IMG/VR virus record: IMGVR_UViG_2740892230_000013
Source: a virus
Lineage: Duplodnaviria; Heunggongvirae; Uroviricota; Caudoviricetes
Direction: 5' to 3' (one strand)
Length of the DNA stretch: 11,897 bases
The notes under the pieces were generated by a model. That model was not told where the DNA came from, did not search any database, and saw only the letters and a program-made list of their open reading frames with translations. The first letter of the stretch is position 1, and each line of letters starts with the position of its first letter. Of the stretch, positions 1 through 11,316 are shown piece by piece. A program made the position numbers and the translations under genes.

Positions 1-106
1 AACTATCAACCACCATTTATAAATCATAACCTTATGATTTTATTAACTTTGAAAATGGCTCTATACAACGCCATTTGAATCTATTGTCACTTTTTATCGC
101 CACTTT

Positions 107-1108
107 TTACCCTCTATTGTCAAAAGGGTTCAATTCAACAGCAGCCTCTAAATGACCTGGAGCAAAATGCGCATAACGCATAGTCATTTTTATATCGCTA
201 TGCCCCAGTATTTTTTGCAACACAAGAATATTTCCGCCCCGCATCATAAAATGACTGGCAAACGTGTGACGTAGCACATGAGTTAATTGCCCATCAGGAA
301 GCTCGATCTTCGCTCTCTTAATTGCAGCGTCAAAAGCCTCATAACATGGTGAAAATAGCGCTCCTCGTTTTTTAGGAAGTATAGCCTGCAATTGAGGTGA
401 AATCGGTACAGTGCGGTTCTTCTTTCCTTTAGTTTTAACAAATGTGATTCGACCGGGCAGTACTTGAGATTGCTTTAATCCTTCTGCTTCACTCCACCGA
501 GCACCCGTCGCAAGCCCAATACGGACAACAACCCCCAAATCTTTATTCCGTGACTCATCACACGCAATCAGAAGGCGTTCAATCTCATCTACATACAGAA
601 ACGCCAGTTCCTTTTCTTCCTCACGAAACTTGCGAATACCAGTCAGGGGGTTTTCACCAGACCACTCCCCAAGGCGCTTCAGTTCGGCAAAAACAGCATG
701 TAGATATGACTGCTCGCGATTAACGGTTGCTTCACTAAGTTTTTTCTTCCCCTTGGGATTCCATTCTCCTGATAGCCTTCTTTCCCGATAAGTAGCAAAC
801 ATATTTTTGTCAAACTGAGAAGCAAATGGATCTCCCAGCCTGGAACAAATCGCCTCAAGTTTGACTTTGCGCTCTGCACCAGAGGACAAGGTTTTACCGT
901 ACATCTCAAACCAACGAGCAATCAACTCAGAAAGACGAGGACCAGAACCATCTTGAAACTCGTCTCCAACTCTACTATTCATTATACGGCGCTCATAAGA
1001 GAGCGCCTCACTTTTTGTCGCAAACTGTTTACGAATGCGTTTTCCCGATGCCCCGTAGGGATAACATTCGCAAAGCCATTTACCTGATGTAATCTTACGA
1101 ACCGACAT
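107..1108 (-). CDS. int: Tyrosine recombinase / phage integrase (P2-type)
   Basis: 333-aa ORF. C-terminal catalytic region carries tyrosine-recombinase hallmarks (GARWSEA..., HVLRHTFASHF, LGHSDIKMTMRYAHF: conserved R, H-x-x-R and nucleophile Y). N-terminal 'GKRIRKQF.TKSEA' and the overall layout resemble P2-family integrases as recalled from memory; no search run. Confidence 0.9.
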   Translation of the reverse strand: MSVRKITSGKWLCECYPYGASGKRIRKQFATKSEALSYERRIMNSRVGDEFQDGSGPRLSELIARWFEMYGKTLSSGAERKVKLEAICSRLGDPFASQFDKNMFATYRERRLSGEWNPKGKKKLSEATVNREQSYLHAVFAELKRLGEWSGENPLTGIRKFREEEKELAFLYVDEIERLLIACDESRNKDLGVVVRIGLATGARWSEAEGLKQSQVLPGRITFVKTKGKKNRTVPISPQLQAILPKKRGALFSPCYEAFDAAIKRAKIELPDGQLTHVLRHTFASHFMMRGGNILVLQKILGHSDIKMTMRYAHFAPGHLEAAVELNPFDNRG

Positions 1109-1113
1109 TTTAG

Positions 1114-1461
1114 TTACTTATCACATAAATCAAATGCAGCCTTAGTGACATCCCCCAGAGTCTTTTTTAACCCTGGGGCGGCATCATTATCTAGCCAAAA
1201 TGGATTATTGTTATCTAACGGTAACGCACCAAATGTTTTACCTTTTATTCGAGCCAAACCTGTAAGTGCATATAACTTATTATCGTCAAAATTCATCACA
1301 TAAGGATTACCATCAAGACACTGTAATTGAACCTCATCAGTATTAAATGGCCATACCCCATTGAAACTCTCACGTTCAATAGTTTTAAAAGGCATTGCGA
1401 CGGCGGAAAAAGAAAACATAGATAAAAAAGTAACTAATAGTTGAACCTTTTTTACTTTCAT
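1114..1461 (-). CDS. Hypothetical secreted (periplasmic) protein with Sec signal peptide
   Basis: 115-aa ORF with a typical signal peptide (MKVKKVQLLVTFLSMFSFSAVA|MP, A-x-A cleavage site, no lipobox Cys). GAGGT RBS about 6 nt upstream. Stop lies 5 bp from the int start, so it is co-transcribed with int. Confidence 0.6.
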   Translation of the reverse strand: MKVKKVQLLVTFLSMFSFSAVAMPFKTIERESFNGVWPFNTDEVQLQCLDGNPYVMNFDDNKLYALTGLARIKGKTFGALPLDNNNPFWLDNDAAPGLKKTLGDVTKAAFDLCDK

Positions 1462-1490
1462 ATCATTACCTCAATTTAGCTCAAGTAAGA

Positions 1491-2141
1491 TTACAAATTA
1501 AAAAACGCCCTAGAAATGACACCGCCTACCAAAACCCCTACGCAGATAAAGAATATTATTTCTTTTGGATAAAGTCGGATTAATTCTGAAGCACGAAGTC
1601 GGACTTCTGGTAAGGTCGAACTCTCTGTGTGGCTTGATGCCGATTGTTGCTCTAACCACGACAATGCAGACTGTAACTGAGAACGAGTAAGATCGTTTAA
1701 ACGTCCTGTACCGAAATTGATATGGCAATACCGCAGAAGTTTTTGTCGAAGTCCACAGTCTTCACTGTTACGTAGTAATAAACTTACAAGAGCCTTACAG
1801 GCATCATGATCTTTACATCGCTCAAGCATTGCATGCAGAAAACTCTCCGCTGTTTTATATTGATTTACTGTCATATCATCAATACCAGCTACACCAATCT
1901 CCGCATGTACTTTTTGCCAAATAATAAACGCTTCAGTATTGCTAGCTTCTGCAATAGCAGCAACCAAGCTATTTAGCTCCTTACGCTGAGCCTTAAGCAA
2001 AGGGCGATCGTCATCATCATTATTCGAAGGGATTGCGATATTGACGGTCTGAGAACCATCATATCGCTCTATCTGAATATTCTTTTCGTGAAAATCACGC
2101 CCAGCAACGCGATTGTTTGAACCGTTTGAGTTGACGGCCAT
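1491..2141 (-). CDS. Hypothetical tail-anchored membrane protein (soluble N-terminal domain, single C-terminal TM helix)
   Basis: 216-aa ORF with a GGAGG RBS 5 nt upstream of the ATG. C-terminal hydrophobic segment IIFFICVGVLVGGVI. N-terminus carries GSNNRVAGRDF, which matches a motif at the C-terminus of the upstream HTH protein. Sits in the same operon as the repressor and int. Confidence 0.65.
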   Translation of the reverse strand: MAVNSNGSNNRVAGRDFHEKNIQIERYDGSQTVNIAIPSNNDDDDRPLLKAQRKELNSLVAAIAEASNTEAFIIWQKVHAEIGVAGIDDMTVNQYKTAESFLHAMLERCKDHDACKALVSLLLRNSEDCGLRQKLLRYCHINFGTGRLNDLTRSQLQSALSWLEQQSASSHTESSTLPEVRLRASELIRLYPKEIIFFICVGVLVGGVISRAFFNL

Positions 2142-2156
2142 GTCACCTCCCTACTA

Positions 2157-2561
2157 TCACCTACCCTTAGTTTCGTTATAGTCACGACCAGCGATACGGT
2201 TATTACCACCAGAAATATTTAACTCACGTCCTGATGGCTGAGTTTCCTTTTCACTGATCGCACCTTTTAAAGCCCCAATCACCGCATTTTTCACATCTAA
2301 CGAAGCTGCTCGAAAGCGAGTAATCAACTCCTGCTCATCATCGTTATAAGTTTCAGGTGAGTGAATTCCCAACACAACATACTGAACATCAAGGCCAAAA
2401 CGAGACAGCGCTGCCAAATACGCAGCATCAGGAAAGCTATCTCCTTTCTCATATCTAAGCTGAGTTAGCTTTTTGACTCCACCAATGTCGCTCATGGCAA
2501 CTTGACTAAGTCCCAATCTTTCCCTTTCCTCACGCAACCGCTGACCAATATCATTTTTCAT
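2157..2561 (-). CDS. HTH XRE-family transcriptional regulator, probable prophage immunity repressor (C/CI analogue)
   Basis: 134-aa ORF. N-terminal helix-turn-helix of the Cro/CI (XRE) type (QRLREERERLGLSQVAMSDIGGVKKLTQLRYEKG). Divergently oriented to the rightward early operon across a 75-bp operator-like region. Followed in the same orientation by int. Confidence 0.8.
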   Translation of the reverse strand: MKNDIGQRLREERERLGLSQVAMSDIGGVKKLTQLRYEKGDSFPDAAYLAALSRFGLDVQYVVLGIHSPETYNDDEQELITRFRAASLDVKNAVIGALKGAISEKETQPSGRELNISGGNNRIAGRDYNETKGR

Positions 2562-2636
2562 ACAAAAACCTTGACAGGTATCTTTTTTGATACCAAAATG
2601 ATTTCACGAGCTATTAGATGATCACAATATACCACT
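2562..2636. promoter_or_regulatory. Divergent promoter/operator region between the repressor and the early operon
   Basis: 75-bp intergenic region between divergent genes. TTGACA at 2571-2576 with a weak -10 candidate 17 bp downstream. Perfect palindrome GGTATC-N6-GATACC at 2577-2594 overlaps the promoter spacer. TGATCA palindrome at 2619-2624. Confidence 0.5.
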
Positions 2637-2843
2637 ATGAAACAAGTTCTTCACGATACCAGATCACGCATTCCGCGTAACACCGCCACAGGTCCAAGAC
2701 TGGCACTTCGGCTGTCCCTCGAGGAGCGAGCCGTCATTGATGAAATGGCAGCTAAAGAACAACGCTCATCCTCTAACATGGCGCGTATGATCTTCCTTCG
2801 CGGCCTAGAGCTAACCCAGAAAGAACAAAACAAATCTTCCTGA
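2637..2843 (+). CDS. Putative ribbon-helix-helix (Arc/MetJ/CopG-like) DNA-binding protein
   Basis: 68-aa ORF, first gene of the rightward operon. Segment LALRLSLEERAVIDEMAAKEQRSSSNMARMIFLRGLE fits the RHH beta-strand/helix/helix pattern. Weak RBS, so the start is uncertain. Confidence 0.5.
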   Translation: MKQVLHDTRSRIPRNTATGPRLALRLSLEERAVIDEMAAKEQRSSSNMARMIFLRGLELTQKEQNKSS

Positions 2844-2859
2844 TCAGGAGGCTAGTGGG

Positions 2860-3063
2860 ATGTCAGGTATAACCATCAATATCAATGTGAATGCCCCCTA
2901 TGTATCCCTGCAGAAATATGCAGAGATAACAGGTATCCCTCTTAATACATGCAAAAAGATGTTGGCTGACGGTCGAATTATTATCCGACCCAAACGCGCC
3001 AAAATGGAAAAGCCTGAAGTAAACCTTGTGGCGATGTTAAAAGACGCTTTGGCTAACAGCTAA
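2860..3063 (+). CDS. Cox/Apl-like small HTH protein (excisionase / early-operon regulator)
   Basis: 67-aa ORF with an AGGAGG RBS about 8 nt upstream. HTH segment YVSLQKYAEITGIPLNTCKKMLADGRI resembles the P2 Cox / AlpA-type excisionase fold as recalled from memory. Position is right of the repressor, as in P2 and 186. Confidence 0.65.
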   Translation: MSGITININVNAPYVSLQKYAEITGIPLNTCKKMLADGRIIIRPKRAKMEKPEVNLVAMLKDALANS

Positions 3064-3084
3064 AACAATGAACAGAGCACCATC

Positions 3085-3435
3085 ATGAAAAAAAACGCTA
3101 ATAATCCATACTCCAAATTTCGTAATGGCGTAGAACGCCATGTACACCACGTCGCTACCAGTGCATCACGTAGTAACAGTCGCTATAACCTGAACGAGAC
3201 GCACGCAACACCGGATGGCCACGCTGTAAAACAAATCGGCGAGCATGCCTGGCTGATTGAGAAAGCTGGAATCGTGGTCCACAAATGCCCACGCAATCCG
3301 TTTACTGGAAACCGCATTTTTGCTCTAAGCAGCGGCGACAATCAGTTCGGGCAGGATTTCACATTATACGAAGCACTACGCACGGTTGATCGTCTGCTTC
3401 GCGGACAAAGTTTTATTAAACAGGCTGATTTATAA
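3085..3435 (+). CDS. Hypothetical protein
   Basis: 116-aa ORF in the early operon with no recognisable motif. Coding-like composition. Weak RBS. Confidence 0.5.
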   Translation: MKKNANNPYSKFRNGVERHVHHVATSASRSNSRYNLNETHATPDGHAVKQIGEHAWLIEKAGIVVHKCPRNPFTGNRIFALSSGDNQFGQDFTLYEALRTVDRLLRGQSFIKQADL

Positions 3436-3445
3436 CAGGTGCTTT

Positions 3446-3722
3446 ATGACCAAAGAGCATGCACAAGGTGTATTTATCCGTTTTATTGATTTTCGCGGTG
3501 AACTGTTATTACGCGCATCAGCCATTGACGTAGTTGTTCCATCCGAAAAAAACGCAGCTACTTACGTTTATCTGAACGGTACGCGCCTGACTGTGGAGCT
3601 TCCGTACCAGACCGTACGAGAAATCATTAGCGAAGCTGAAAAGGCACGTCAGGTTAATGGCGATGAACCCTATATCGAAATTATTTGTATGGATTCAGAA
3701 GCTGAAATTCAGAAAGCAGATT
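3446..3722 (+). CDS. Hypothetical protein (92 aa; 3' end and stop lost to the N-gap at 3723-3732, with a second diverged partial copy at 3733-3946)
   Basis: ATG at 3446 with an AGGTG RBS 5 nt upstream. The post-gap segment re-encodes residues from about AID... to ...EIQKAD followed by TAA at 3944-3946, with a few substitutions. This is a variant copy, not a fused 186-aa protein. Confidence 0.55.
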
Positions 3723-3957
3723 NNNNNNNNNNCGCTATTGATGGAGTGGCTCCGGCGGGTAAAAACGGAGCCGACGAAGCCACTTACGTTTATCTGAACG
3801 GCACGCGACTGCTTGTGGAACTTCCGTACCAGACCGTACGAGAAATCATTAGCAAAGCTGAAAAAGCGCGCCAGGCTAATGGCAATGAACCCTATATCGA
3901 AATTATTTGCATGGATTCAGAAGCTGAAATTCAGAAAGCAGATTAAAGGGCGTTGTG

Positions 3958-5250: not shown

Positions 5251-5373
5251 GAAACCAGAACATGCACACACAAAAAAACCGCTTGCCATGCCGCAATCAG
5301 TCAGGTTACATTTCCGCTGCACCTCACAAAACGGGTGCCGGGTTTCGCAGCCTGCTGACTACACAAGCGCACA

Positions 5374-5393
5374 ACCGCGCCAGCGGTTTTTTT
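5374..5393 (+). terminator. Short intrinsic-terminator-like hairpin (ACCGC-GCCA-GCGGT followed by a 7-T run)
   Basis: 5-bp GC-rich stem, 4-nt loop and a T7 tract on the + strand, inside an ORF-poor stretch between the early small genes and the replication genes. Confidence 0.35.
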
Positions 5394-5448
5394 GTGCGTA
5401 CTGTATTGCCACGTTTTTTTCGCGTCAGAATTATGGCGGGGCGTACGG

Positions 5449-5467
5449 GGCCGACTTCGGTCGGGCC
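5449..5467 (+). other. Stable stem-loop with a UUCG tetraloop (GGCCGAC-TTCG-GTCGGGCC)
   Basis: Direct inspection: CCGAC/GTCGG stem closing a TTCG loop, extended by flanking G/C pairs. Lies in a region without a credible ORF. Confidence 0.35.
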
Positions 5468-5572
5468 GGGTTCTTGTGTAGCCGGTACTGCGAACCTCGT
5501 ACGTCTCGCCACCCACAGTTTCGCAGCTCTGGATGGTGAGTTTTCACAACTTACTACACAAGGGGCCACACC

Positions 5573-5803
5573 ATGGCAAACCGCAAACCACACCGCGCTA
5601 TCGCGGAGCGTCGTCACATCCAGACTGAAATCAACCGCAGACTTTCCCGCGCATCACGCGTCGCGCAAATCATGCACATCAATATGCTGCATGAGCACAG
5701 CCACGCACTATCAAACATTTATTCCGCCTCTGTTTTCAGCTATCTGGCGGATGATCTGCACGAGCTTCAACAGCTCATCCAGCAGCAAAACAAACTCCAT
5801 TAA
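5573..5803 (+). CDS. Putative small basic protein
   Basis: 76-aa ORF. ATG preceded by AAGGGG about 7 nt upstream. Codon usage looks host-like. Basic N-terminus, Q-rich C-terminus. No recognisable family. Confidence 0.4.
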   Translation: MANRKPHRAIAERRHIQTEINRRLSRASRVAQIMHINMLHEHSHALSNIYSASVFSYLADDLHELQQLIQQQNKLH

Positions 5804-9943: not shown

Positions 9944-11000
9944 ATGAAAATTTGTATCGACGACGGCTCCACCAACATCAAGCTGGCATNNNNNNNNNNT
10001 GTAATCGCCATTCACCACGCGCTGGTCAAATCAGGCATCACACCACAGGAGGTGGATGTGGTTGTCACCCTGCCACNNNNNNNNNNGGACCGAGAGCGGC
10101 GAACGCCGCAACGCCATCAGCCCGAACAGCTTCAAGTCGGAATGGTCTGCGCCGTTCGGTGGCACACAGCCCGCGAACTACATGCTTGATGGCGTGCGCT
10201 ATGGTTTTGATCCGGTCAGCGATCGCTTTGTCCAGACGACCGACACGCAATACCAGTACAGCGATGTGAACGTAATTGCCATTCATCACGCGCTAGTCAA
10301 ATCAGGCATCACGCCACAGGAGGTGGATGTGGTTGTCACCCTGCCACTGAGCGAATATTTCGACACAAACGCACAGCCGGACATGGCCAACATCAACCGC
10401 AAAAAAGCGAACGTCATGCGCCCGGTGGAGTGCCAGAACGGTGAGGCATTCACTATCCGTAACGTGCGGGTTATGCCTGAATCCATTCCGGCTGGCTTTA
10501 AAGCACTGGCTGACATGAGTCCGTTTGAATCCCTGCTGATTGTGGATTTGGGCGGAACCACGCTGGATGTGGCAAAGGTTCAGGGACAACTGGCAGGTAT
10601 CAGCCAGGTATTTTGCGATCCACACGTAGGCGTTTCCCTGATGGCCGATGCCGTACTGTCGGTGATGGCCACTAACGGTATGCGTACCAGTCACCACATC
10701 GCCAATACCATTATCGAACATCGCCATGATGAAGCCTGGCTGCGCCAGCACATCCACAATGACGCGCATTACGCCAGCCTGATGGCGGTTATTCGTGAAA
10801 AGGAAGAAACACTGAAACAACGCGTGATCCGCGCGCTGGCGGGTTTTTCGGGTTACGGGCGGGTGATGGTTGTCGGTGGCGGGGCGGAGATTGTGGCACC
10901 CGCTATCCGCGAAGCCTGCGGAGTTAATGCGACTTTCATCGCGGACGGGGTGCCACAGTTTGCTCTGGTTAATGGGCTGTACGCAATGGACAAGGAGTAA
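9944..11000 (+). CDS. parM: ParM/StbA-like actin-fold partition ATPase (composite across N-gaps; an alternative start copy is at 9701-9746)
   Basis: N-terminus MKI(Y/C)IDDGSTNIKLA. Internal matches to plasmid R1 ParM recalled from memory (ISPNSFK, YSDVNVIAIHHALVKSGI, VMPESIPAG, DLGGTTLDV, VVGGGAEI, LVNGLYAMDKE). GGA RBS 8 nt upstream of both start copies. 10000-10076 is a misplaced variant copy of 10272-10337. Confidence 0.85.
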
Positions 11001-11004
11001 ACCA

Positions 11005-11316
11005 ATGACGACACCAACCAGACGGATAAGTTACTATCTGAAGCCCGCCGCCGTCAAGAACGAAGGCGAAGCATGCGCATGGCTGGACAGCCTTACACCA
11101 GAAGCCCGCAAAAGCGGCCAACGCGTGGCTTTTCTGGCCGGGCTGGCACTTCTGAAAATGAATCCAGCAGAGGCTTACCGACTGGCTGCATGGGCTGACG
11201 ATGAGGCGTTATCAGTGACACAAACCAGGATAGAATGCCCCGCGTCACAGCCAGTATCAACCGCACAGATAACCAGTCAGATGGCCGGAAATATCCGGGC
11301 GTTATTTCCCGAATAA
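11005..11316 (+). CDS. parR: ParR/StbB-like centromere-binding adaptor
   Basis: 103-aa ORF 4 bp after the parM stop, with an AAGGAG RBS 7 nt upstream. Pattern RRISYYLKP...LDSLTPE...RVAFLAGLALL...IRALFPE parallels R1 ParR (RRTIAFKLNP...LDSIPQGE...RAALTAGLAL...LRSLFPKE) as recalled from memory. Confidence 0.7.
   Translation: MTTPTRRISYYLKPAAVKNEGEACAWLDSLTPEARKSGQRVAFLAGLALLKMNPAEAYRLAAWADDEALSVTQTRIECPASQPVSTAQITSQMAGNIRALFPE

What the first reader, a model, noticed from the sequence alone, without database searches (positions are those of the whole stretch)
1114..2561. Two-gene membrane/periplasmic cargo inside the repressor-integrase lysogenic operon
Four tightly packed leftward genes (intergenic gaps of 15, 29 and 5 bp) run repressor-like HTH, tail-anchored membrane protein (216 aa), signal-peptide periplasmic protein (115 aa), integrase. 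In P2-type phages the repressor and int are normally adjacent, so the two middle genes look like inserted cargo expressed in the lysogen. That is the classic position of superinfection-exclusion or abortive-infection modules (lambda rexAB in the cI operon is the analogy). Neither protein shows a motif I can assign to a described family, and the segment looks AT-richer than the replication region. This is my leading candidate for an undescribed lysogen-expressed exclusion or defence module.
Basis: partly seen in the sequence, partly recalled or inferred. Interest (0 to 1): 0.72.

Follow-up and report, generated by a model that had tools for sequence, protein, structure and literature searches.

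The report
Phage repressor with matching membrane partner
The two "cargo" genes are different things. One encodes a membrane-anchored protein that always accompanies this kind of phage repressor and shares a short, co-varying end-motif with it, pointing to an undescribed way of controlling dormancy. The other is a swappable accessory gene for a periplasmic protein.

Summary
The four tightly packed leftward genes are real, with gaps of 15, 29 and 5 bp. The window is a P88-like (Peduoviridae) E. coli prophage at yecA, found in about 9% of complete E. coli genomes including O157:H7.

The "two-gene cargo" reading is only half right.

**The 216-aa gene (1491-2141)** encodes a tail-anchored Flk_N-domain protein and is not cargo.
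- In all 80 viral contigs recovered with a Flk_N query it sits directly downstream of this XRE repressor type.
- Related repressor/membrane-protein pairs occur in Mu-like phages, including B3 ORF18/20 and BcepMu gp17/18.
- The repressor's disordered C-terminal tail and the partner's disordered N-terminus share a ~17-aa G/N/Q-rich motif.
- The motif co-varies between lineages: cognate 35.1 against non-cognate 21.2, permutation p ≤ 5e-5.

I infer a repressor plus membrane-partner switch module. I found no description of it.

**The 115-aa gene (1114-1461)** encodes a YebY/DUF2511 periplasmic protein.
- It is AT-rich (35% GC).
- It lies in a hypervariable slot upstream of int that holds at least eight unrelated gene families in relatives.
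- The position matches Vibrio phage K139 glo, a periplasmic exclusion protein. An exclusion role is plausible but untested.

No known defence family matched either protein.

The parts
2157..2561 (-). XRE-family HTH protein, 134 aa; inferred immunity repressor of this prophage (third switch type, neither P2 C nor 186 CI)
   Evidence: Weak HTH_31/HTH_3 matches. phrog_8 transcriptional regulator, 2.5e-14. It is the first gene of the leftward operon and diverges from the Arc-like and Cox-like genes. Homologues sit in the repressor position of B3 (ORF18) and BcepMu (gp17). AlphaFold2 gives an HTH domain at residues 5-64, helices at 74-105, and a tail at 104-134 with pLDDT below 50.
2172..2222 (-). 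C-terminal tail motif of the repressor (residues 114-130, LNISGGNNRIAGRDYNE)
   Evidence: BLASTP finds 10 of 17 residues identical to residues 3-19 of the next protein. The motif is conserved in 47 of the 120 listed homologues, while other lineages carry other flavours of it. It lies in predicted disorder.
1491..2141 (-). Tail-anchored Flk_N-domain membrane protein, 216 aa; inferred dedicated partner of the repressor
   Evidence: PF27202 Flk_N (precomputed). phrog_5825, 6.6e-103. NCBIfam Flk model, 7.8e-16 but 58 bits against a cutoff of 353. Always found immediately downstream of the HTH gene.
2085..2135 (-). N-terminal motif of the partner (residues 3-19, VNSNGSNNRVAGRDFHE)
   Evidence: Residues 1-44 have pLDDT of about 51-57. 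Six of the ten shared residues use different codons, so the similarity is kept at the protein level and is not a recent DNA duplication.
1623..2006 (-). Flk_N helical domain (residues 46-173)
1497..1568 (-). C-terminal transmembrane anchor (residues 192-215)
   Evidence: AlphaFold2 helix at 192-215. Hydropathy segment at 187-205.
1114..1461 (-). YebY/DUF2511-family periplasmic protein, 115 aa; accessory gene (moron) in the variable slot upstream of int
   Evidence: PF10709, 26.4 bits against a cutoff of 21. phrog_2950, 3e-39. YebY structure 7n0j, E 0.006, with both disulfide cysteines aligned. GC 35.3%. The slot is exchanged in relatives.
1396..1461 (-). Signal peptide of the DUF2511 protein (residues 1-22, AVA then M)
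   Evidence: Read from the sequence; hydrophobic segment at residues 6-24. The cleavage site is inferred.
107..1108 (-). P2-type tyrosine integrase, 333 aa
   Evidence: Int_N 5e-32 and Phage_integrase 3e-22. phrog_1.
2562..2636 (.). Divergent switch region between the repressor gene and the early lytic operon
   Evidence: A promoter-like site on the + strand at 2571-2599. GGTATC/GATACC inverted repeats and repeated GATACCA copies are candidate operators. Function is inferred.
2637..2843 (+). Arc-like small regulator, 68 aa; first gene of the rightward early operon
   Evidence: phrog_3431, 1e-28.
2860..3063 (+). Cox-like excisionase/repressor, 67 aa
   Evidence: phrog_575, 1.2e-27.

Best explanation
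The segment contains two unrelated things.

**(1) A two-protein switch module.** The HTH gene and the 216-aa gene belong together. The XRE repressor ends in a disordered tail. The next gene encodes a cytoplasm-facing protein held at the inner membrane by a C-terminal anchor, and its disordered N-terminus carries the same roughly 17-residue G/N/Q-rich motif.

I infer that the two motifs pair directly, probably as beta-strands. The membrane protein would then bind the repressor tail and control how much free, active repressor the lysogen has. It would act as a membrane-tethered sequestering or anti-repressor-type partner that could couple the lysis-lysogeny decision to a membrane-proximal signal.

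**(2) A swappable accessory gene.** The 115-aa gene encodes a YebY/DUF2511 periplasmic protein expressed from the lysogenic operon. It sits in the position where Vibrio phage K139 carries the periplasmic exclusion gene glo. Its most likely role is lysogenic conversion at the envelope, by exclusion of other phages or by binding an envelope-active ligand.

**Shown:** gene order, family membership, strict linkage, motif co-variation, predicted disorder, membrane anchoring and slot variability.

**Inferred:** physical binding, the direction of regulation, and any exclusion activity.
For: **Linkage**
- All 80 viral contigs found with a Flk_N query (44 distinct combinations) have an upstream ORF ending 9-18 bp before it. 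The C-terminal tail of that ORF matches the Flk_N N-terminus with local alignment scores of 50-79.
- The same arrangement is found in Klebsiella, Citrobacter and Serratia P2-like prophages.
- It also occurs in Mu-like prophages of Pectobacterium, Pseudomonas and Gilliamella, next to transposase genes and without int.
- Sequenced phages B3 (ORF18/ORF20) and BcepMu (gp17/gp18) carry the pair.

**Co-variation**
- In 28 non-redundant loci, cognate tail against N-terminus scores averaged 35.1, against 21.2 for non-cognate pairs.
- Permutation gave p ≤ 5e-5, and 11 of 28 cognate partners ranked first.
- 30 of 46 tightly linked pairs exceeded the non-cognate 95th percentile.
- 28 chromosomal HTH homologues next to a response-regulator gene scored only 12-25.
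- Different motif flavours coexist within one host group, which argues for pair-specific recognition. Examples are the AGRD and GQV types in Pseudomonas phages, and the AGRD and FNG..GQF types in Enterobacterales.

**Position of the motif**
- The DNA pattern for NR[VI]AGRD[FY] hits 47 distinct proteins within the first 25 residues, 9 within the last 25, and 5 internally.
- 36 of the 38 complete N-terminal carriers have a transmembrane segment, although their middle domains differ (Flk_N, zinc-ribbon plus two TM segments, and others).
- The C-terminal carriers whose sequences I inspected are XRE HTH proteins.

**Structure and codons**
- Both motifs lie in low-confidence, disordered termini next to confident folded domains.
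- Six of the ten shared residues use different codons.

**Accessory slot**
- Two Klebsiella prophages are 93% and 90% identical on either side but carry a 288-aa BRCT protein or a DUF2511 protein in between.
- E. coli variants carry a WYL protein or a 95-aa protein there.
- A homologue of K139 orf2 occupies the slot in Kosakonia (33% identity, E 2.5e-50).
- K139 has the layout cI-orf2-glo-int.

**Literature**
- The repressor of the P2-like prophage Sp13 of O157 Sakai lacks a peptidase motif, yet Sp13 is induced about 30-fold by mitomycin C by an unknown mechanism (PMC2669165).
- O157:H7 EDL933 carries this cassette at 99.5% identity in its P2-like prophage at yecA.
- Adjacent genes sharing a C-terminal and an N-terminal motif are the hallmark of amyloid signalling pairs, including E. 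coli Bab/Agp.
Against: - No direct evidence of binding exists. AlphaFold2 was run on single chains only.
- The direction of regulation is unknown: sequestration, stabilisation, anchoring or inactivation are all open.
- Both proteins come from the same operon, so a constitutively active anti-repressor would make little sense without a gating signal. No signal has been identified.
- The prophage carries another candidate de-repression route. This is a C4 antisense RNA and isrK, followed by a 76-aa "derepression protein". That protein is 95% identical to the one in P88, which has an unrelated repressor, so it may not be cognate to this repressor.
- 10 of the 46 tightly linked loci scored below 30. 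In the two I checked by eye (L023, L030) a shared motif is still visible; the rest were not examined, and mis-called starts are possible.
- For the DUF2511 protein there is no functional data in any phage and no similarity to Glo.
Confidence: 0.6

Rival explanations
1. The 216-aa membrane protein and the 115-aa periplasmic protein work together as one lysogen-expressed superinfection-exclusion or abortive-infection module that was inserted between the repressor gene and int, by analogy with lambda rexAB.
For: - Both genes lie in the lysogenic operon and both products are envelope-associated.
- No housekeeping function is known for either.
- K139 carries an exclusion gene in the same position.
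- The int-to-primase region is a minor defence hotspot in P2-like phages (PMC13586616).
Against: - The two genes do not co-occur as a unit. The Flk_N gene is found with at least eight other third genes, and in Mu-like phages without DUF2511.
- GC content differs: 41.5% against 35.3%.
- The tail-anchored protein exposes almost nothing to the periplasm, so contact with a soluble periplasmic protein is unlikely.
- PADLOC found no hit.
Confidence: 0.08
2. The Flk_N membrane protein is itself an effector: a membrane-acting toxin, an exclusion factor or a modulator of the host flagellar export gate, like Flk. The repressor tail would hold it in check or report on it, so the pair would behave as a toxin-antitoxin-like or abortive-infection couple rather than as a regulator of lysogeny.
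For: - The matching motifs imply contact.
- Flk is a tail-anchored inhibitor of the flagellar type III export switch (PMC13344023).
- In Bab/Agp, motif-sharing neighbours form an abortive-infection system acting at the membrane.
- Some loci carry two motif-bearing membrane proteins in tandem (L032, L071).
Against: - The middle domain of motif-bearing partners is not conserved. It can be Flk_N, a zinc ribbon or something else, which fits a tether better than a specific effector.
- The match to the Flk model is far below cutoff, 58 bits against 353.
- True Flk proteins lack the motif.
- There is no pore-forming or enzymatic domain.
Confidence: 0.15
3. The shared motif is not a mutual binding site but a common recognition element for a third party. 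This could be a host protease or chaperone, such as FtsH, ClpXP or Lon acting on unstructured termini. The membrane protein would then act as a decoy or adaptor that sets repressor turnover, as lambda CIII protects CII from FtsH.
For: - Both motifs sit in disordered termini of 30-45 residues, the kind of initiation sites used by AAA+ proteases.
- The core resembles the LexA cleavage-site string (R-V-A-A-G). This comparison is from memory and was not tested.
- Turnover of the Mu repressor is controlled through its C-terminus, which is established knowledge for Mu.
Against: - Motif flavours differ between phages of the same host group, while cognate pairs stay matched. A conserved host factor would not produce this pattern.
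- No protease gene is linked to the module.
Confidence: 0.12

Closest known systems
Vibrio phage K139 lysogenic operon cI-orf2-glo-int (Peduoviridae)
   Same: - The layout is the same: repressor, a middle gene, a small signal-peptide protein, then integrase, all leftward from the lysogenic promoter.
- glo is annotated as a periplasmic phage-exclusion protein.
- A K139 orf2 homologue occupies the variable slot in a related HTH/Flk_N prophage.
   Different: - There is no sequence similarity between Glo and the DUF2511 protein.
- There is none between K139 cI or orf2 and the HTH or Flk_N proteins here.
- K139 cI is a 215-aa protein without the tail motif.
Amyloid signalling motif pairs (fungal HET-S/NWD2, bacterial BASS families, E. 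coli Bab/Agp BASS11)
   Same: - A short G/N/Q-rich motif lies at the C-terminus of one protein and the N-terminus of the protein encoded by the adjacent gene.
- The motif co-varies within pairs and is disordered in the monomer.
- One member of the pair acts at the membrane.
   Different: - There is no NLR, Bell or Babybell domain.
- The C-terminal carrier is a DNA-binding repressor, not a cell-death effector.
- The motif is somewhat shorter, about 17 residues.
- Amyloid formation is untested, and I could not compare against the BASS profiles.
SinR/SinI of Bacillus subtilis and membrane sequestration of repressors (Mlc by PtsG)
   Same: A repressor is controlled by a partner that carries a copy of the repressor's own interaction segment (SinI) or that holds it at the membrane (Mlc and PtsG). 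This is an analogy of logic, drawn from established knowledge.
   Different: - There is no homology.
- The shared segment here is a disordered terminal motif rather than a helical oligomerisation domain.
- The partner is encoded in the same operon.
Flk (RflH/Fluke), flagellar export-switch inhibitor of Salmonella and E. coli
   Same: It has the same N-terminal helical domain (Flk_N) and the same tail-anchored, cytoplasm-facing topology.
   Different: - Flk is 320-416 aa and lacks the N-terminal motif.
- It is chromosomal and acts on the flagellar export gate.
- The phage proteins are 180-230 aa, sit next to a repressor gene, and score far below the Flk family cutoff.
E. coli YebY and Microbispora MlbQ (DUF2511 family)
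   Same: - The fold family is the same and the disulfide pair and tryptophan are conserved.
- All are exported proteins.
- PMC8689200 already noted yebY homologues between a recombinase gene and a phage CI repressor gene in Enterobacteriaceae.
   Different: - There is no copper (yobA-yebZ) or lantibiotic context here.
- The sequence is very divergent (E 0.006 to YebY).
- The function in a prophage is unknown.

Membership tests
Flk_N domain family (PF27202) | Match to the Flk_N profile | tested here: met
   The local Pfam copy lacks this model. The precomputed annotation gives PF27202 for the 99%-identical cluster representative and for all close homologues. The NCBIfam Flk model aligns residues 35-166 with E 7.8e-16.
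Flk (flagella biosynthesis regulator, NCBIfam NF007987 equivalog) | Whole-protein score above the curated cutoff, and a flagellar role | tested here: not met
   58.3 bits against a cutoff of 353. Length is 216 aa against 320-416 aa. The context is a prophage, and true Flk proteins lack the N-terminal motif.
Tail-anchored inner-membrane proteins | A single C-terminal transmembrane helix with the bulk of the protein in the cytoplasm | tested here: met
   AlphaFold2 helix at 192-215 of 216 residues. Hydropathy segment at 187-205. No signal peptide. The orientation is inferred.
DUF2511 / YebY family (PF10709) | Profile match above the gathering score | tested here: met
   26.4 bits against a cutoff of 21, covering profile positions 2-87 of 87.
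DUF2511 / YebY family (PF10709) | Signal peptide and the two conserved disulfide cysteines | tested here: met
   N-terminal hydrophobic leader ending in AVA. The cysteines in QCLDG and DLCDK align with the corresponding YebY cysteines in the 7n0j alignment. I equate these with the Cys48-Cys113 disulfide pair described for YebY.
DUF2511 / YebY family (PF10709) | Copper-operon (yobA-yebZ-yebY) context | tested here: not met
   The neighbours are the Flk_N gene and int. PMC8689200 states that the family also occurs in unrelated contexts.
K139 Glo-type periplasmic exclusion proteins | A small exported protein encoded just upstream of int in the lysogenic operon of a P2-like phage | tested here: met
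   The layouts were compared.
K139 Glo-type periplasmic exclusion proteins | Sequence homology to Glo | tested here: not met
   BLASTP E 9.8.
K139 Glo-type periplasmic exclusion proteins | Phage-exclusion phenotype | not testable with these tools
   This needs plaque assays with the cloned gene.
Known anti-phage defence systems (PADLOC-DB 2.0) | Match to any defence-protein model | tested here: not met
   No hit for the 216-aa or 115-aa proteins at E ≤ 0.1. The HTH protein gives only weak HTH-level hits.
Lambda rexAB-type exclusion in the repressor operon | A two-component sensor plus membrane ion-channel pair co-transcribed with the repressor | tested here: inconclusive
   The position in the repressor operon is met. 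There is no homology, and the two genes do not co-occur as a unit.
Amyloid signalling motif pairs (BASS/FASS) | The same short motif at the C-terminus of one protein and the N-terminus of the product of the adjacent gene, co-varying within pairs | tested here: met
Amyloid signalling motif pairs (BASS/FASS) | Association with NLR-type sensors and Bell/HeLo-type effectors | tested here: not met
   The partners are an XRE HTH protein and membrane proteins with Flk_N, zinc-ribbon or other domains.
Amyloid signalling motif pairs (BASS/FASS) | Cross-beta fibril formation and templating | not testable with these tools
   Only disorder in the monomer models could be shown.
P2 C-type and 186 CI-type immunity repressors | Homology to P2 C or 186 CI, the two common switch types (PMC3448106) | tested here: not met
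   P88 has a 93-aa C protein in this position. DNA similarity between the window and P88-like phages begins only at about 3118. The HTH protein here matches XRE-type profiles.

The most novel reading that the evidence does not exclude
The repressor tail and the membrane protein's N-terminus form an amyloid-like, templating signalling pair of the HET-S/NWD2 or Bab/Agp kind, but wired to a lysogeny switch. A membrane-proximal event, such as envelope damage or superinfection, would make the tail-anchored sensor assemble. Its N-terminal motif would then convert the repressor tails into an aggregated, inactive state, and the prophage would induce without RecA-dependent cleavage. This would be the first prion-like control of a phage repressor. 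It could also explain the puzzling inducibility of O157 Sp13-type P2-like prophages.
Probability: 0.12. Interest if true: 0.92.

Novelty: new variant of a known kind. Interest (0 to 1): 0.68.

Why it matters
P2-like and Mu-like prophages are very common in Enterobacterales, Pseudomonas and Burkholderia. This cassette alone is in about 9% of complete E. coli genomes, including O157:H7.

For the repressor type found here, the way lysogeny is maintained and broken is unknown. Its repressor has no self-cleavage domain, yet the O157 prophage Sp13 is induced by mitomycin C.

A membrane-anchored partner recognised through a matched terminal motif would add a new kind of input to the lysis-lysogeny decision. 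The motif pairs come in several specificities and could serve as orthogonal interaction tags.

The finding is directly testable with a handful of constructs.

The variable slot upstream of int is also a defined place to look for new lysogenic-conversion or exclusion genes. The YebY-like protein would be the first member of that family with a phage-related role.

Tried and rejected
- **PADLOC on all four proteins** gave nothing for the two middle genes.
- **PADLOC and Pfam on slot genes from relatives** gave only BRCT or WYL domains and a weak hit to candidate system PDC-S48.
- **Sequence search of the Flk_N profile against PDB** found nothing.
- **A natural HTH/Flk_N fusion** was not found among the 120 listed of 232 HTH homologues or among the 92 Flk_N representatives.
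- **Read-through or frameshift fusion of the two genes** was rejected. Three stop codons separate them here, and the spacing and frame vary between loci.
- **Recent DNA duplication or gene conversion as the source of the shared motif** was rejected because of the synonymous differences.
- **Glo/DUF2511 homology** was rejected.
- **A viral-contig scan with the broad Flk_N alignment** failed for lack of conserved columns. It was repeated with a narrower alignment.
- **Comparison with the BASS11 motif** could only be attempted from residues named in the text of the Bab/Agp preprint. The motif sequence itself is not in the held text, so no comparison was made.
- **A literature search** for this repressor and membrane-partner module found nothing.
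Full report
**Observation**

The window carries four minus-strand ORFs:

| Coordinates | Length | Product |
|---|---|---|
| 2561..2157 | 134 aa | HTH protein |
| 2141..1491 | 216 aa | membrane protein |
| 1461..1114 | 115 aa | exported protein |
| 1108..107 | 333 aa | integrase |

- The gaps are 15, 29 and 5 bp. Ribosome-binding sites precede the two middle genes.
- No terminator-like site lies on that strand.
- The 216-aa protein has one C-terminal hydrophobic helix, and the 115-aa protein has a signal peptide.
- GC content rises from 35.3% (115-aa gene) through 41.5%, 43.7% and 44.8% (216-aa, HTH, int) to 55.5% in the replication gene.
- The description is therefore correct. Co-transcription remains inferred.

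**What the element is**

- Positions 1-3500 are 97% identical to the predicted Escherichia phage 520873 (Xuanwuvirus, Peduoviridae). From about 3118 onward they resemble P88-like phages.
- 507 of 5426 complete E. coli genomes hold at least 80% of this stretch, always as a prophage next to yecA. Examples are E. coli 55989 and O157:H7 EDL933.
- P88 itself has int and a 93-aa C repressor side by side. This window therefore carries a different immunity region.

**Family assignments**

- The integrase is a standard P2-type tyrosine recombinase.
- The HTH protein is XRE-like.
- The 216-aa protein belongs to phrog_5825 and carries the Flk_N domain, PF27202. It aligns to the Flk model at E 7.8e-16 but at 58 bits against a cutoff of 353.
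- The 115-aa protein is a divergent YebY/DUF2511 member. It scores 26.4 bits against a cutoff of 21, and both disulfide cysteines align to the YebY structure 7n0j.
- PADLOC finds nothing for either middle gene.

**The 216-aa gene is not cargo**

- Its homologues in Klebsiella, Citrobacter and Serratia P2-like prophages always follow an HTH gene of this type.
- The same HTH type is followed by a Flk_N protein or another membrane protein in Mu-like prophages of Pectobacterium, Pseudomonas and Gilliamella. There it sits beside transposase genes and no integrase is present.
- Sequenced phages B3 (ORF18/ORF20) and BcepMu (gp17/gp18) have the pair.
- From the Flk_N side, all 80 viral contigs recovered (44 distinct combinations) have an upstream ORF ending 9-18 bp away whose tail matches the Flk_N N-terminus.
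- Across 1.84 billion representative proteins, only 92 relatives were found. The phage-type members (180-230 aa) carry an N-terminal motif and a C-terminal anchor. True Flk proteins (320-416 aa) lack the motif.

**The shared motif**

Residues 114-130 of the repressor (LNISGGNNRIAGRDYNE) and residues 3-19 of the next protein (VNSNGSNNRVAGRDFHE) are 59% identical. Other lineages use other flavours, and the two genes of a pair still match:

| Source | Repressor tail | Partner N-terminus |
|---|---|---|
| Pectobacterium | FNGDISGQFAGNQIINN | FNGTAQGQFSSRDIINI |
| Pseudomonas | QQFNGPVGTVTSGDVVN | QQFHDRVHQVAAGDIKN |
| Jeongeupia | TVDYGNAQIGQASAGDIVN | TVSFGGAQIDQAAAGDINN |
| BcepMu | QEQVFHGSVGQAVKVEG | KQEFNKPVGQAIQAGE |

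- In 28 non-redundant loci the cognate score averaged 35.1 against 21.2 for non-cognate pairs. Permutation gave p ≤ 5e-5, and 11 cognates ranked first.
- 30 of 46 tightly linked pairs exceed the non-cognate 95th percentile. 28 chromosomal HTH homologues next to a response-regulator gene score only 12-25.
- An E. coli prophage whose HTH homologue lacks the tail motif has no motif-bearing gene after it.
- Six of the ten shared residues in this window use different codons. The similarity is therefore maintained at the protein level.
- A DNA pattern for the AGRD flavour hits 47 distinct proteins within the first 25 residues, 9 within the last 25 and 5 internally.
- 36 of the 38 complete N-terminal carriers have a transmembrane segment, although their middle domains differ.
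- AlphaFold2 places both motifs in low-confidence termini next to confident domains. These are repressor residues 104-134 (pLDDT below 50) and partner residues 1-44 (pLDDT about 51-57). The Flk_N domain at 46-173 has pLDDT above 95.

**Interpretation of the pair**

Four features are constant:
- a repressor with a disordered tail;
- a membrane protein with the same motif on a disordered cytoplasmic N-terminus;
- immediate adjacency of the two genes;
- pair-specific co-variation, even among phages of one host group.

This points to direct recognition between the two termini, with the partner acting as a membrane tether for the repressor. The direction of the effect is not known. Sequestration or anti-repression gated by a membrane-proximal signal is my preferred reading.

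Supporting context:
- The P2-like prophage Sp13 of O157 Sakai is induced about 30-fold by mitomycin C although its repressor lacks a peptidase motif, and the mechanism is unexplained (PMC2669165).
- The corresponding prophage of O157:H7 EDL933 carries this cassette. That Sakai Sp13 carries it too is an inference.

Alternatives, covered under the rivals: a shared degron for a host protease, an effector role for the membrane protein, and amyloid-like templating as in Bab/Agp and the BASS pairs.

Fold searches gave no functional assignment.

**The 115-aa gene is an accessory gene in a variable slot**

- Two Klebsiella prophages are 93% and 90% identical on either side but carry either a 288-aa BRCT protein or a DUF2511 protein in between.
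- E. coli variants carry a WYL-domain protein or a 95-aa protein there.
- Among the viral contigs the slot holds the following:
  - DUF2511 proteins;
  - small acidic proteins;
  - BRCT proteins;
  - homologues of K139 orf2 (33% identity, E 2.5e-50);
  - two-TM proteins;
  - several signal-peptide proteins;
  - a zinc-ribbon-like protein.
- The phage-type DUF2511 subfamily is small, with 17 clusters.
- Vibrio phage K139 has cI-orf2-glo-int with glo annotated as a periplasmic exclusion protein. Glo and the DUF2511 protein are not similar.
- PMC8689200 had already noted yebY homologues between a recombinase gene and a phage repressor gene. It also showed that YebY resembles the lantibiotic-binding MlbQ.
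- The int-to-primase region is a minor defence hotspot in P2-like phages (PMC13586616).
- A role in exclusion or envelope protection is plausible but untested.

**Comparison with what is known, and novelty**

- The common P2-like switch types are P2 C and 186 CI (PMC3448106). This repressor is neither.
- Among 50,697 phage records, only the predicted phage 520873 carries close homologues of the two middle genes. More distant versions of the pair in B3 and BcepMu are annotated only as hypothetical or membrane proteins.
- Literature searches found no description of the motif link.
- I rate the pair as a new variant of known kinds (repressor-partner modules, motif-sharing neighbour pairs). I rate the DUF2511 gene as a new member of a known kind (a lysogenic-conversion gene next to int).

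**Verdict**

The more interesting result is the repressor and membrane-partner module rather than a two-gene defence cassette. Interest is 0.68.

Noticed in passing
window 5319-5803 (+): Rfam gathering-level hits to the isrK sRNA (5319-5393, 64 bits) and the C4 antisense RNA (5429-5516, 83 bits). They are followed directly by a 76-aa ORF (5573-5803, phrog_3688). This ORF is 95% identical to the protein annotated as "derepression protein" in P88. It looks like P1/P7-style antisense control of an anti-repressor-like gene inside a P2-like prophage. Because P88 has an unrelated repressor, the target of this protein is unclear.
   Followed up: partly
window 3723, 4610, 8084, 8438, 8823, 8915, 9023, 9747, 9990, 10077: Ten runs of exactly 10 N. 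The ORF translations either side of several runs repeat the same peptide segments, for example inside the replication gene and the 3386-3946 ORF. These look like scaffolding artefacts. None lies within 1-3500.
   Followed up: partly
window 2637-2843 (+) versus L001 8651-8788 (-): RefSeq annotation of E. coli 55989 and EDL933 calls a 45-aa minus-strand hypothetical ORF here. The plus-strand 68-aa ORF matches the Arc-like repressor family phrog_3431 at 1e-28, so it is probably the real gene.
   Followed up: partly
window 10056-11316 (+): A ParM-like segregation ATPase and a partition/stability protein follow the replication endonuclease gene. They are annotated as such in E. coli 55989. This is plasmid-type partition machinery in an integrated P2-like prophage.
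   Followed up: no
L032 and L071 (genome contigs): In these loci the third gene also starts with the motif and has transmembrane segments. One repressor is therefore followed by two motif-bearing membrane proteins in tandem.
   Followed up: no
L187, L203, L237, L239, L241 (viral contigs): A second class of motif-bearing partners of 118-145 aa. They have the N-terminal AGRD motif, a CxxC...CxxC zinc-ribbon-like segment and two transmembrane helices, and no Flk_N domain.
   Followed up: partly
L294 767-2801 (Salmonella contig): Three paralogous HTH genes lie in tandem ahead of one Flk_N gene. Two of them have the AGRD tail and one does not.
   Followed up: no
L004 6647-7513, L102 1399-2343, L020 third gene: BRCT-domain and WYL-domain proteins recur in the variable slot, as do homologues of K139 orf2. 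K139 orf2 hits the PADLOC candidate system PDC-S48 at 3e-8, and the L004 BRCT protein hits it only weakly (E 1e-3). The slot may hold uncharacterised defence or sensor genes.
   Followed up: partly
window 2562-2636: The divergent switch region contains a GGTATC-N6-GATACC inverted repeat and further GATACCA copies at 2589, 2629 and 2655. These are candidate operators for the repressor.
   Followed up: no
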